Origin: Escherichia coli
GTDB lineage: Bacteria; Pseudomonadota; Gammaproteobacteria; Enterobacterales; Enterobacteriaceae
Length of the DNA stretch: 64,000 nt
Strand: one strand, 5' to 3'
NCBI RefSeq assembly: GCF_051903065.1
Contig: NZ_CP178438.1
Made by a program: the position numbers and the translations under genes. This document shows positions 2,787 through 47,852 of this stretch, one piece after another (the first letter of the stretch is position 1; each line of letters begins with the position of its first letter). The notes under the pieces were generated by a model. That model made no database searches. It saw nothing but the letters and a program-made list of their open reading frames with translations, and was not told the origin of the DNA.

Positions 2787-5700
2787 TCATGACTGATTAA
2801 AACGAAACAGCGGTAACAGGAAACGTTGCGACTGTTCAACGATGGCCTCCATTGTCTCTGGTGTTAATTGCCGCCAGAGCCGTTGATACCAGATATCATC
2901 ACCTTCGCCACGCACCATCATGTTGCCTTCGTAAGCCTGAAGGAATTTCGTACGGGCTTTTTGCAACGTGGAATCGTCATCCAGCATGGCATCGTTTTGC
3001 GCGTCATAACAGGTTTTTAGCCACGCGCCGCCACTTTCAGGTAACACCAGCAATGGCGCGGACATCCCTTCACGATACCCCTCAATCAGTTGTGAGAGGT
3101 AATGCAAAGCCTGTTCGGCTGCAAGCGGCGGAAAACGCCACTCGCCGTCTTTGCGTAGAAAAAGGCGACTTTCACCATTACCACCGCTGGCACAGTAGAC
3201 AAGGTGTTCCAGCCAAAGTTGCATTCCCTGCGCCACACTTAATAAAGAGGGACGCCAGCGCAACAAGCCATCCGGCTGCACCTGCGGCAACCAGCCAGTT
3301 ATCTGCACACCGTTGCAAGCGAGATCAATTTCCATACTCTGCCCCGGCTGGCGACAGGCAATGACTCTGTCGGCAAGCTGCTGCATCTCCTGGCACTGTG
3401 TTTCCCAGAAAATTTCACCAAAAGCGCCATACGGTAAATCCCCTGCCGCCCGGAAGCGGCGGAACAAGCGTTCGGCATCATCCTGCTCAACCAGTGCATT
3501 CAATAACTGCTGATTGATTTGATAACGGCTAAGTCCTTCCAGAATAAATGGCTCGGTGTCGGGGATTTCGCTGTCTTCGGTACGGAAGTTCACCTGCAAA
3601 CGCATCTGGAAAAATGCCCGCACCGGATGTGCCCAGAATCGTTGTAGCGTTTCCAGCGGCACGGTTTCCGGTAAGGTAAACGGCAGCGGCTGAACAAATT
3701 CAGAATGTGCTTTACCAGCCTGGCTGGCCGCAGGTAGCCATTCACGAGCATAGCTTTGTCGTTCGCCTGGCTGATAGTTTTGTGGATCAAACGGCATTCG
3801 GGTATGGAGGCAAGTAAGATGCGCTTTTACCCTTGCCTCGCTTTCATCACAGTTGAGCGCTTCATCGCCCGGTAGATAATGACTTTGCCCGATGTAGTCG
3901 ATCAGTTCCTGCACCAGTACCGACGGGAAACGTTCACTGTTATCCTGAATGGAACGCCCGATATAGCTGATATAGAGTTTTTGCTGCGCGGAAATTAACG
4001 CTTCCAGGAACAGATAGCGGTCGTCATCGCGACGGCTACGGTCGCCACGCTTCGGTTTCTGGCTCATCAGGTCAAAGCCCAATGGCGCAAGCTGACGTGG
4101 ATAAACGCCGTCGTTCATTCCCAGCAGGCAAACCACTTTGAACGGAATTGAACGCATTGGCATCAGAGTACAAATGTTAACCGGTCCGGCGAGAAAACGC
4201 TGGCTGATACGTTCTTGATCCAGGCGCTGTGCCAGTTCATCACGCAATAGTGACAACGGCACCGCGTCGCCATACTGCGCACCTAAACCTTCGGCGATAA
4301 TCGCCTGCCATTGTTGTTCGATCAGCGTCATCGCCGCTTCGGTTTCCGCATCCGGCAGGAAGAAGGCGTTGAGCATATCGCGACAAACCGGCAACCACTC
4401 TTCCAGCGGACGCTCCTGTGCCAGCCCGCGACGCCAGATGTTTAGCTGCATTAGCAGTGAAGCCAGATGCCCCACCAGTTCTGCAATTAAGCCGCTCGAT
4501 TCATCATAAGGTAGAACCGATTGCCACTCGCCCTGCGCGCTCTCCATCGCGTAGCCCAACAACATACGCGTCAGGCCAAATCGCCAGGTGTGTTGTCCGG
4601 TGGCGGGGAGTTCCAGCTCGCGAACGTTGTCGTCATCTATCCCCCAACGAATGCCGGATTCGTTGACCCACTGACGTAAATAACGCAGCCCTTCTTCGGT
4701 GATGTCAAACCGCGCCGCCAGCACCGGCACATCCAGTAATGCCAGCACGTCTTCCGACACAAAGCGGCTGTCTGGCAACGATAACAGGCTGATAAACGCT
4801 TCAAGTACAGGATGCGACTGCCGCGCCCGACGGTCGGAAATGGCGTAAGGCAGGTAACGATCCGCAGGTGCGCTACCAAACACAGCCTGAATAAACGGAC
4901 TGTAGCTGTCGATATCAGCCACCATCACGATGATGTCGCGCGGAGTAAGTGTCGGGTCTTCTTCCAGCATCGCCAGCAGGCGATCGTGTAAAACTTCAAC
5001 TTCACGCTGCGGGCTATGGCAAACGTGGAAGGTGATACTGCTATCCAGTGGATCAAGCGGACGTTTGTTATCGCTACGGGAAAACTCTTCGATGTTCACA
5101 CCAGCAACGGCGCGGTTTTCCAGTTCCAGAATGTCAGACTGAATGTTATGCAGCAGGTTATCTGGCGTCACATCGACAAAAGCATCCAGCTCCTGGCTGC
5201 TCTCCAGGTCAGAAAGGAGATAAATGTAGTCGCGCCCAAGCTTGCCCCATGAGGCCAGCAGCGGGTTGCCGACATCCTGTTCACCATCGCTGTTAAAGAG
5301 CTGCCCGGCATTTTCGCTGTCGCGAAATAGCGGTAATTCGCGATCTTCAAAACTGTGTCGGCGCTGGCGAGTCAGTAGTTTCGCCAGATAAGCAGGATCT
5401 TTAATGTCGCCCCAGTAATAACGGCAGGGGTTGGTAAACAGGAGATGGATTTCAATATGTTTACCCAGCGCCTGGAGCGCCTGGAGATAAACAGGCGGTA
5501 ACGCGGAAATACCGCATATAAAGACGCGCGAAGGTAACCCCGGCGGGCAGGTCGCCGCGGACTCCAGCGTTTCGATAAAGCGCTGATAGAGATTGGCGCG
5601 GTGCCAGCGCGGTTGTCCGAGTTGATGGGTATATTCCACCAGCGCCTTCCACAACGGCGCTTGCCAGGCCTGTGCCTCTCCCAGCCCTTCAACCAAATGT

Positions 5701-16396: not shown

Positions 16397-19763
<3,367 letters not shown>

Positions 19764-19829
19764 TCAGTAAAAGCGAATGGAGGGAGATTACACGAGATAA
19801 AGAACGCGAGCGACAGTAAATTAGGTGCG

Positions 19830-19917
19830 AAAAAAAACCTGCGCATCCGCGCAGGTTGGTGCAAGAGACAGGGTACGAAGAGCGTACCGAATAATCTCAC
19901 CAATCAATACCTCTGGG
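19830..19917 (-). ncRNA. omrA: OmrA small regulatory RNA
   Basis: Minus-strand sequence CCCAGAGGTATTGATTGGTGAGATTATTCGG...CTGCGCGGATGCGCAGG followed by a U-run (terminator hairpin); matches OmrA in the aas-galR intergenic region. Confidence 0.9.
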
Positions 19918-20031
19918 ATCTTGATTGTGGTCTGCACGACGACTCTTCGCCAGCGAGAAAACGCAAAGGAATGAAGGGAAATGCAACGAGGTGTGTAAAT
20001 TGTCGGTTACTGTTACAGATTGATGACCGGC

Positions 20032-20114
20032 AAAAAAAAACCTGCGCATCTGCGCAGGCTGGTGTAATTCATGTGCTCAACCCGAAGTTGACTTCACCTA
20101 TCAATACCTCTGGG
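20032..20114 (-). ncRNA. omrB: OmrB small regulatory RNA
   Basis: Minus-strand CCCAGAGGTATTGATAGGTGAAGTCAACTTCGGGTTGAGCACATGAATTACACCAGCCTGCGCAGATGCGCAGG plus U-run; tandem paralogue of omrA sharing 5' and 3' ends. Confidence 0.9.
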
Positions 20115-20327
20115 ATCACCACTTTAGCAACCTGAAGCCAAACGCCACCAGCGGTCAATCGCAACAGCGTTTCGCAAAGTGTAACCAAAGGTTTGCAATC
20201 TCTTTTTTTGTCTTACTTATTTGCGTTTGGCTCACATTCCCACGATGAAAACACGCCGCCCCTTGAACCAACGGGCGTTTTCCGTAACACTGAAAGAATG
20301 TAAGCGTTTACCCACTAAGGTATTTTC

Positions 20328-21359
20328 ATGGCGACCATAAAGGATGTAGCCCGACTGGCAGGCGTTTCAGTCGCCACCGTTTCCCGCGTCATTAATAATT
20401 CACCCAAAGCCAGCGAAGCGTCCCGGCTGGCTGTGCATAGTGCAATGGAGTCTCTTAGCTATCACCCGAACGCCAACGCCCGTGCGCTGGCGCAGCAGAC
20501 CACTGAAACGGTCGGTCTGGTCGTTGGTGATGTTTCCGATCCGTTTTTCGGTGCAATGGTGAAAGCGGTCGAACAGGTGGCTTATCACACCGGTAATTTC
20601 TTATTGATTGGCAACGGTTACCACAACGAACAAAAAGAGCGTCAGGCTATTGAGCAACTGATCCGCCATCGCTGTGCTGCGTTGGTCGTCCATGCCAAAA
20701 TGATCCCAGATGCTGATTTAGCCTCATTAATGAAACAAATGCCCGGTATGGTGCTGATCAACCGTATCCTGCCTGGCTTTGAAAACCGTTGTATTGCTCT
20801 GGACGATCGTTACGGTGCCTGGCTGGCAACGCGTCATTTAATTCAGCAAGGTCATACCCGCATTGGTTATCTGTGCTCTAACCACTCTATTTCTGACGCC
20901 GAAGATCGTCTGCAAGGGTATTACGATGCCCTTGCTGAAAGTGGTATTCCGGCCAATGACCGGCTGGTGACATTTGGCGAACCAGACGAAAGCGGCGGCG
21001 AACAGGCAATGACCGAGCTTTTGGGACGAGGAAGAAATTTCACTGCGGTAGCCTGTTATAACGATTCAATGGCGGCGGGTGCGATGGGCGTTCTCAATGA
21101 TAATGGTATTGATGTACCGGGCGAAATTTCGTTAATTGGCTTTGATGATGTGCTGGTGTCACGCTATGTGCGACCGCGCCTGACCACCGTGCGTTATCCA
21201 ATCGTGACGATGGCGACCCAGGCTGCCGAACTGGCTTTGGCGCTGGCGGATAATCGCCCTCTCCCGGAAATCACTAATGTCTTTAGTCCGACGCTGGTAC
21301 GTCGCCATTCAGTGTCAACTCCGTCGCTGGAGGCAAGTCATCATGCAACCAGCGACTAA
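20328..21359 (+). CDS. galR: Galactose operon repressor (LacI family)
   Basis: 343-aa ORF, MATIKDVARLAGVSVATVSRVINN HTH. Confidence 0.95.
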   Translation: MATIKDVARLAGVSVATVSRVINNSPKASEASRLAVHSAMESLSYHPNANARALAQQTTETVGLVVGDVSDPFFGAMVKAVEQVAYHTGNFLLIGNGYHNEQKERQAIEQLIRHRCAALVVHAKMIPDADLASLMKQMPGMVLINRILPGFENRCIALDDRYGAWLATRHLIQQGHTRIGYLCSNHSISDAEDRLQGYYDALAESGIPANDRLVTFGEPDESGGEQAMTELLGRGRNFTAVACYNDSMAAGAMGVLNDNGIDVPGEISLIGFDDVLVSRYVRPRLTTVRYPIVTMATQAAELALALADNRPLPEITNVFSPTLVRRHSVSTPSLEASHHATSD

Positions 21360-47778: not shown

Positions 47779-47852
47779 TGGAGCGGGCGAAGGGAATCGA
47801 ACCCTCGTATAGAGCTTGGGAAGCTCTCGTTCTACCATTGAACTACGCCCGC
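47779..47852 (-). tRNA. glyU: tRNA-Gly (anticodon CCC)
   Basis: Reverse complement reads GCGGGCGTAGTTCAATGGTAGAACGAGAGCTTCCCAAGCTCTATACGAGGGTTCGATTCCCTTCGCCCGCTCCA; cloverleaf with CCA end. Confidence 0.95.

What the first reader, a model, noticed from the sequence alone, without database searches (positions are those of the whole stretch)
19830..20114. Tandem paralogous sRNAs OmrA and OmrB between aas and galR
Two roughly 85-nt minus-strand RNAs share a 5' end (CCCAGAGGTATTGAT) and an identical terminator hairpin while differing in the middle. They are not in the ORF track and account for most of the conserved sequence in this 585-bp gap. Their OmpR-dependent promoters should lie just upstream, at higher coordinates.
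Basis: partly seen in the sequence, partly recalled or inferred. Interest (0 to 1): 0.3.

Follow-up and report, generated by a model that had tools for sequence, protein, structure and literature searches.

The report
Known E. coli sRNA genes omrA/omrB

Summary
Confirmed and already known. Rfam OmrA-B (RF00079) matches window 19830-19917(-) at 96.6 bits and 20033-20114(-) at 86.1 bits (gathering score 40), both full length. The two RNAs (88 and 82 nt) are 100% identical to the annotated K-12 MG1655 genes omrA (b4444) and omrB (b4445). They lie in the same 585-bp aas-galR gap, which differs from K-12 at two bases. The locus is in 5423 of 5426 complete E. coli genomes.

In 29 homologues from about 13 genera the first 15 nt never vary. 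The terminator stem is always paired and shows compensatory changes. The middle keeps a hairpin while its sequence changes.

Both promoters lie upstream at higher coordinates. omrA has a CACAAT -10 element (-12C, reported as sigma-S dependent). omrB has TGcTAAAGT. Both carry conserved GTTxCA boxes around -70, inside the region shown in the literature to be needed for OmpR activation.

Two small corrections. The terminator hairpins are not strictly identical: the loop and the closing pair each differ by one base. The RNAs hold only 54% of the invariant columns in the gap; the promoters hold about 30%.

The predicted pairing of the 5' end with ompT and ompR leaders reproduces published sites. 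Nothing here is new.

The parts
19830..19917 (-). omrA gene (OmrA sRNA, 88 nt; +1 = 19917)
   Evidence: RF00079 96.6 bits, model 1-87/87; 100% identical to K-12 b4444
20033..20114 (-). omrB gene (OmrB sRNA, 82 nt; +1 = 20114). The T-run continues one base further, to 20032, than in K-12
   Evidence: RF00079 86.1 bits, model 1-87/87; 100% identical to K-12 b4445; extra T at 20032
19897..19917 (-). OmrA 5' target-pairing region (nt 1-21). Nt 1-15 are invariant in 29 homologues
   Evidence: All 15 nt are unpaired in the MFE fold. Predicted duplexes with ompT and ompR leaders beat shuffles
20094..20114 (-). OmrB 5' target-pairing region (nt 1-21), 20 of 21 identical to OmrA
19872..19888 (-). OmrA central hairpin GGTACG-CTCTT-CGTACC (paralogue-specific middle)
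   Evidence: The GTACG/CGTAC stem is kept in all A-type homologues
20077..20091 (-). OmrB central hairpin TCAACT-TCG-GGTTGA (paralogue-specific middle)
19830..19857 (-). OmrA intrinsic terminator (stem 19836-19857) with U-tail. This module is expected to bind Hfq
   Evidence: Terminator scan. Helix 100% paired in 26 distinct sequences, 3 pairs with compensatory changes
20032..20060 (-). OmrB intrinsic terminator (stem 20039-20060) with U-tail
19918..20031 (-). omrA promoter PomrA (-1..-114). Elements: -10 CACAAT 19924-19929 (-12C); CGCTGG 19950-19955; TTTGCG 19962-19967; GTTGCA 19982-19987 (-70..-65); TTTACA 19994-19999; invariant TGTAACAG box starting 20017 (-100)
   Evidence: Positions, conservation in 7 species. 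-114..+50 is sufficient and -60 insufficient for OmpR activation (PMC5175337). -12C confers sigma-S dependence (PMC12692685)
20115..20193 (-). omrB promoter PomrB (-1..-79). Elements: extended -10 TGcTAAAGT (hexamer 20121-20126, -12T); CGCTGG 20148-20153; GTTGCG 20160-20165; GAAAC 20169-20173; GTTACA 20180-20185 (-71..-66); the conserved block AACCTTTGGTTACACTTTGCG reaches 20193
   Evidence: OmpR-P activates it in vitro (PMC5175337). An RstA consensus lies in conserved box B2 (PMC13425233)

Best explanation
These are the tandem paralogous genes omrA (19830-19917, minus strand) and omrB (20033-20114, minus strand) of Escherichia coli. Each is an independent transcription unit with its own promoter and its own intrinsic terminator. 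EnvZ-OmpR activates both promoters through upstream sites between about -114 and -60. omrA also depends on sigma-S through a -12C in its -10 element. omrB uses an extended -10 sigma-70 promoter and carries OmrB-specific boxes. The RNAs bind Hfq. Their single-stranded, invariant 5' end (CCCAGAGGUAUUGAU) pairs near the translation start of many mRNAs, including ompT, cirA, fecA, fepA, csgD, flhDC, flgM and ompR itself. Pairing blocks translation and triggers RNase E decay. Because ompR is one of the targets, the circuit is a negative feedback loop. The divergent central hairpins give each paralogue some targets of its own, such as btuB for OmrA. Shown here: identity, structure, conservation, promoter anatomy, and pairing potential with ompT and ompR. 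Taken from the literature on the identical K-12 sequence: expression, Hfq and RNase E dependence, and OmpR, sigma-S and RstA control.
For: Rfam RF00079 hits at 96.6 and 86.1 bits against a gathering score of 40. Both RNAs are 100% identical to K-12 omrA and omrB, and the gap differs from K-12 at 2 of 585 positions. The flanking genes are aas and galR. The locus is present in 5423 of 5426 complete E. coli genomes. Both terminators are detected. Both RNAs fold better than shuffles, z = -2.7 and -2.9. Across 29 homologues nt 1-15 are invariant; the terminator helix is 100% paired with 3 compensatory pairs, and 0 of 500 shuffles reach the observed covariation score. Every homologue has a central hairpin even though the sequences cannot be aligned. 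The -10 elements and upstream boxes are conserved in 7 species. The two promoters are 47% identical, against 30.5 +/- 8.6% for shuffles (maximum 43.6%), so the duplication included the promoter. The duplex of nt 1-9 with ompT at about +12..+21 has dG -19.3 (OmrA) and -17.8 (OmrB), reached by 0.4% and 1.6% of shuffled seeds, and matches the published, compensatory-mutation-tested site. The ompR 5'UTR duplex has dG -16.9 (OmrA) and -19.0 (OmrB), reached by 4.6% and 1.0% of shuffled seeds (PMC2588501). Literature: PMC5175337, PMC2588501, PMC12692685, PMC13425233.
Against: Nothing substantive. The cirA duplex lies over the RBS region but is not better than shuffled seeds on energy alone (15-18% of shuffles do as well). 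The OmrB MFE fold pairs part of the 5' end, leaving 8 of 15 nt unpaired. OmpR half-sites were assigned from sequence pattern and conservation, not from a binding assay. Expression in this particular strain was not observed.
Confidence: 0.98

Rival explanations
1. The two elements are cis-acting leader or attenuator structures of the downstream, same-strand gene aas, not independent trans-acting RNAs.
For: omrB, omrA and aas all lie on the minus strand in series. Sub-threshold Leu_leader matches (27.8 and 23.2 bits, gathering score 50) overlap both RNAs.
Against: The Leu_leader scores are far below the gathering score and reflect only the hairpin plus U-run. Each element has its own conserved -10 and upstream boxes and a strong terminator. 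A conserved aas RBS and control region follows separately. The 5' end does not pair with the aas translation start better than shuffles. In Pantoea a PBP gene separates the copies, and in Serratia the RNAs lie several kb from galR. K-12 annotates them as ncRNA genes.
Confidence: 0.01
2. The repeats belong to small protein-coding ORFs that overlap the region: 50 aa at 19897-20049(-), 54 aa at 19971-20135(+), 49 aa at 19825-19974(+), 78 aa at 19667-19903(-).
For: The mechanical ORF list shows these frames.
Against: The ATG of the 50-aa ORF is the terminator loop (GATG), which is absent in E. cloacae. The cross-species alignment has indels that are not multiples of three in the spacers. Conservation follows RNA and promoter blocks, with compensatory stem changes rather than codon periodicity.
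Confidence: 0.01
3. The shared 15-mer and hairpins are a chance or generic repeat, such as a REP-like or terminator repeat with no specific function.
For: The 15-mer alone also hits unrelated phyla in a 298-Gb collection, as expected by chance.
Against: There are 2 copies in the window against 0.1 expected. The full-length covariance-model E-values are 6e-18 and 2e-15. The family and its position next to aas are conserved across Enterobacterales.
Confidence: 0

Closest known systems
E. coli K-12 omrA (b4444, formerly rygA/sraE) and omrB (b4445, formerly rygB); Rfam RF00079 OmrA-B
   Same: Identical RNA sequences, order, strand, spacing and flanking genes. The gap differs at 2 of 585 bases.
   Different: One extra T in the OmrB terminator tail (20032) and G instead of A at 20258, far upstream of omrB. 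Neither touches a conserved block.
Other tandem paralogous Hfq-dependent sRNA pairs (e.g. Vibrio Qrr; cited as comparators in bioRxiv 10.64898/2026.06.26.734639)
   Same: Duplicated sRNAs that share a seed and a terminator but have divergent promoters, so different signals feed one regulon.
   Different: Unrelated sequences and regulators. This is an analogy only, and membership was not tested.
RybB / MicA-type 5'-end-seed envelope sRNAs (established knowledge; RybB parallel noted in PMC2588501)
   Same: A single-stranded, conserved 5' end acts as the seed against many outer-membrane protein mRNAs, followed by a terminator/Hfq module.
   Different: Controlled by sigma-E rather than OmpR, with a different seed sequence. 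No Rfam match to them here.

Membership tests
OmrA-B sRNA family (Rfam RF00079) | Covariance-model score at or above the curated gathering score (40 bits), full length | tested here: met
   96.6 bits (19830-19917) and 86.1 bits (20033-20114), model positions 1-87 of 87
OmrA-B sRNA family (Rfam RF00079) | Invariant 5' end CCCAGAGGUAUUGAU starting at +1 | tested here: met
   Present in both copies. Columns 1-15 are invariant in 29 homologues
OmrA-B sRNA family (Rfam RF00079) | 3' GC-rich intrinsic terminator with a U-tail, supported by covariation | tested here: met
   Terminator scan. 8-bp helix 100% paired, 3 pairs with changes on both sides; slid controls give 18-52% paired for the whole tested structure
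OmrA-B sRNA family (Rfam RF00079) | Variable central region that still forms a hairpin, enclosed by the GGUG/CACC stem | tested here: met
   A central hairpin is predicted in all 29 homologues, though it is marginal in two Erwiniaceae copies at -0.4 and -1.1 kcal/mol. The GGUG/CACC pairs are invariant, so they say nothing about covariation
E. coli omrA/omrB locus | [quoted passage not shown] | tested here: met
   The position next to aas is conserved in other genera
E. coli omrA/omrB locus | Sequence identity to the experimentally characterised K-12 genes | tested here: met
   88 of 88 and 82 of 82 identical
OmrA/B functional class (Hfq-dependent, OmpR-activated, 5'-seed repressors) | 5' end complementary to validated target sites (ompT early coding region, ompR 5'UTR, cirA RBS) | tested here: met
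   The ompT site is reproduced (0.4% and 1.6% of shuffled seeds do as well for OmrA and OmrB). ompR: 4.6% and 1.0%. cirA is in the right place but inconclusive on energy, 15-18% (PMC2588501)
OmrA/B functional class (Hfq-dependent, OmpR-activated, 5'-seed repressors) | OmpR-dependent transcription from promoters immediately upstream | not testable with these tools
   The sequence shows weak -35 elements, conserved -10 elements and GTTxCA boxes at about -70 in both promoters. Direct activation was shown in vitro on identical K-12 DNA (PMC5175337)
OmrA/B functional class (Hfq-dependent, OmpR-activated, 5'-seed repressors) | Hfq binding and RNase E-dependent target decay | not testable with these tools
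   Literature only (PMC2588501)

The most novel reading that the evidence does not exclude
The promoter boxes that are conserved but have no assigned regulator may bind copy-specific regulators that are still unidentified. The candidates are the invariant TGTAACAG at -100 of PomrA, which abuts the OmrB terminator, the CATTCCTTTGCGTTTTC block of PomrA, and the AACCTTTGG part of the PomrB block. If so, the two near-redundant RNAs would integrate more signals than OmpR, sigma-S and RstA. The authors of PMC13425233 already raise this idea, so even if it is true the window adds no new evidence beyond conservation.
Probability: 0.3. Interest if true: 0.2.

Novelty: already known. Interest (0 to 1): 0.05.

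Why it matters
It matters only as a correct annotation. PGAP-annotated E. coli genomes leave this gap empty, although it encodes two regulators of outer-membrane composition, iron uptake, motility, biofilm formation and EnvZ-OmpR feedback. No open question becomes testable because of this window.

Tried and rejected
(1) A permissive Rfam scan of the gap for other RNA families gave only sub-threshold Leu_leader, SgrS and TeloSII matches that overlap the Omr hairpins or promoter. I judged them chance matches.

(2) The generic sigma-70 scan found no promoter for either sRNA. This fits activator-dependent promoters with poor -35 elements. The -10 elements were read from the known +1 and from conservation instead.

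(3) I tested whether the 5' seed pairs with the translation starts of the neighbouring genes aas, galR, lysA, lysR and lplT. None beat shuffled seeds. The preprint 10.64898/2026.06.26.734639 mentions aas only for its synteny, not as a target.

(4) The genome-collection scan with the bare 15-mer returned many chance hits in unrelated phyla. Only the Enterobacterales loci were used, after confirmation with Rfam.

(5) The MAFFT alignment of the central region is unreliable, so pair counts were restricted to the outer stem and the terminator. The central hairpin was assessed by folding each sequence on its own.

(6) The overlapping mechanical ORFs were considered and rejected as coding.

Full report
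**Observation.** The minus strand of window 19500-20500 shows two units that each begin CCCAGAGGTATTGAT and end in a GC-rich hairpin followed by a T-run.
- The 15-mer occurs exactly twice in the 64-kb window, at 19903-19917 and 20100-20114 on the minus strand. Only 0.10 matches are expected even with two mismatches allowed, and 0 of 100 shuffles gave two.
- The repeat finder extends the 5' block to 24 nt at 96% identity and the 3' block to 38 nt at 89% identity. Start-to-start spacings are 197 and 203 nt, and the middles are unrelated.
- The terminator scan finds both hairpins: 9 pairs, a 4-nt loop and a T-tail.
- The flanking ORFs are 719 aa (17583-19742, minus) and 343 aa (20328-21359, plus), which leaves a 585-bp gap.
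One caveat: the two terminator hairpins differ in the first loop base (G vs A) and in the closing pair (A-U vs G-U).

**Identity.**
- A gathering-threshold Rfam scan of the whole window gives three hits. Two are OmrA-B (RF00079) at 19830-19917(-) with 96.6 bits and at 20033-20114(-) with 86.1 bits. Both are full length, and the gathering score is 40.
- A megablast of 19700-20400 finds the locus in 5423 of 5426 complete E. coli genomes, at 99% identity or more in 5387 of them, between aas and galR.
- K-12 MG1655 annotates ncRNA omrA (b4444, 88 nt, next to aas) and omrB (b4445, 82 nt, next to galR) in this gap.
- Direct comparison shows both window RNAs are 100% identical to K-12. The whole gap differs at two positions: an extra T in the OmrB terminator tail (20032) and G instead of A at 20258.
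- The PGAP annotation of the best-matching strain lists no feature in the gap.

**Structure and conservation.**
- Both RNAs fold better than dinucleotide shuffles, with z = -2.7 and -2.9. OmrA leaves its first 15 nt unpaired.
- I collected Enterobacterales loci with a genome-collection scan and confirmed 27 further family members in 19 loci with Rfam.
- In the 29-sequence alignment nt 1-15 are invariant.
- The terminator helix is paired in 100% of cells. Three of its pairs show changes on both sides (G-C to A-U, U-A to C-G, C-G to U-A). The covariation score for the tested structure is reached by 0 of 500 shuffles and collapses when partners are slid. The GGUG/CACC stem never varies, so it says nothing either way.
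- Each homologue's central segment forms a hairpin although the sequences differ by lineage.

**Promoters.**
- Counting from the annotated +1, omrA has CACAAT at -12..-7 (19924-19929) and omrB has TGcTAAAGT (hexamer 20121-20126).
- These match the published -12C (sigma-S dependent) for omrA and -12T (sigma-70) for omrB (PMC12692685).
- Both promoters have poor -35 hexamers. Both have CGCTGG near -38 and a GTT(G/A)CA box at -70/-71. PomrA also has TTTACA at -82 and an invariant TGTAACAG at -100.
- These blocks are conserved in seven two-copy species.
- The two promoters are 47% identical, against 30.5 +/- 8.6% for shuffles (maximum 43.6%). The ancestral duplication therefore included the promoter.
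- Published experiments on identical DNA show that OmpR-P activates -114..+50 templates of both promoters in vitro and that a -60 truncation of PomrA is not OmpR-activated (PMC5175337). This places the OmpR-responsive region at window 19977-20031, where the conserved boxes lie.
- A 2026 paper reports RstA-dependent, OmrB-specific activation through conserved PomrB boxes (PMC13425233).
- My assignment of OmpR half-sites is inference from sequence pattern and conservation, not a binding test.

**Share of conserved sequence.** In the seven-species alignment the two RNAs hold 113 of 209 invariant columns (54%) on 29% of the length. The promoter segments hold 62 (30%). The rest lies in the galR and aas control regions.

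**Mechanism.**
- Published work shows Hfq- and RNase E-dependent repression through the 5' end, with compensatory mutations for ompT, cirA and ompR (PMC2588501).
- I tested pairing potential using the window's RNAs and the K-12 target leaders.
- For ompT, nt 1-9 pair at about +12..+21, with dG -19.3 (OmrA) and -17.8 (OmrB). Only 0.4% and 1.6% of shuffled seeds do as well.
- For ompR, the duplex lies at -39..-10 of the leader, with dG -16.9 and -19.0. Here 4.6% and 1.0% of shuffled seeds do as well.
- For cirA, the duplex overlaps the RBS region but is not distinguishable from shuffles (15-18%).
- The neighbouring genes show no signal.

**Rivals.** I considered leader or attenuator structures for aas, overlapping small ORFs, and chance repeats. 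The evidence above rejects all three.

**Verdict.** This is the textbook omrA-omrB locus of E. coli.

Noticed in passing
L081 3958-4445 (Siccibacter colletis aas-galR gap): There is a single Omr gene (4050-4132, minus) with an OmrA-type body and a PomrA-type promoter (TGTAACAG, GTTGCAC, CATTCCTTTGC, CCACAATCAA). The PomrB block and the omrB body are missing or replaced by unrelated sequence. This looks like an exception to the published statement that the omrB promoter is always the one retained in single-copy species (PMC13425233). It rests on one draft genome only.
   Followed up: partly
L038 6815-6900 (Lelliottia) and L029 5418-5504 (Superficieibacter): In these single-copy loci an OmrA-type body sits behind a PomrB-type promoter. 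The Lelliottia promoter is 81% identical to E. cloacae PomrB and 53% to PomrA. This is the product expected from a deletion by recombination between the identical 5' 24-mers of the tandem copies, and it agrees with the chimeras described in PMC13425233.
   Followed up: partly
L031 130-5010 (Pantoea stewartii): The two Omr copies are 2 kb apart, separated by a 579-aa penicillin-binding-protein gene (PBP_dimer plus Transpeptidase domains). An 843-aa molybdopterin oxidoreductase gene lies between galR and the first copy. So the tandem arrangement is interrupted in Erwiniaceae.
   Followed up: partly
window 20261-20315 (+), galR side of the gap: Conserved TTGAAC, a 16-nt spacer, then TAACAC look like a promoter, followed by ATGTAAGCGTTTACCCAC (20298-20315). 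The last resembles a gal operator, which would fit galR autoregulation; that reading rests on my recollection of the operator consensus. The block is conserved in Citrobacter and Siccibacter, and it accounts for part of the non-sRNA conservation in the gap.
   Followed up: no
window 19786-19800 (-) and 19746-19757 (-): A conserved CTCGTGTAATCT block and a conserved GGGAGTTG ribosome-binding region lie between the OmrA terminator and the aas start. They are probably the aas promoter -10 and RBS.
   Followed up: no
window 47779-47852 (-): A tRNA-Gly gene with anticodon CCC, the only tRNA in the window.
   Followed up: no
window 20032: There is one more T after the OmrB terminator than in K-12 (9 vs 8), which could lengthen the OmrB 3' U-tail by one nucleotide.
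   Followed up: no
L001 (NZ_CP062811.1) 3044-3628: The RefSeq/PGAP annotation of this 100%-identical E. coli strain lists no ncRNA in the aas-galR gap, whereas the K-12 record does. omrA and omrB may therefore be missed routinely in automated annotations, though only this one record was inspected.
   Followed up: no
H12 NZ_CP025903.1 (E. coli strain 300709): A small minority of complete E. coli genomes (18 of 5423) do not carry the region as one contiguous match. H12 covers only query positions 281-701 in one place and has a second place elsewhere, which suggests an insertion or rearrangement inside the locus.
   Followed up: no
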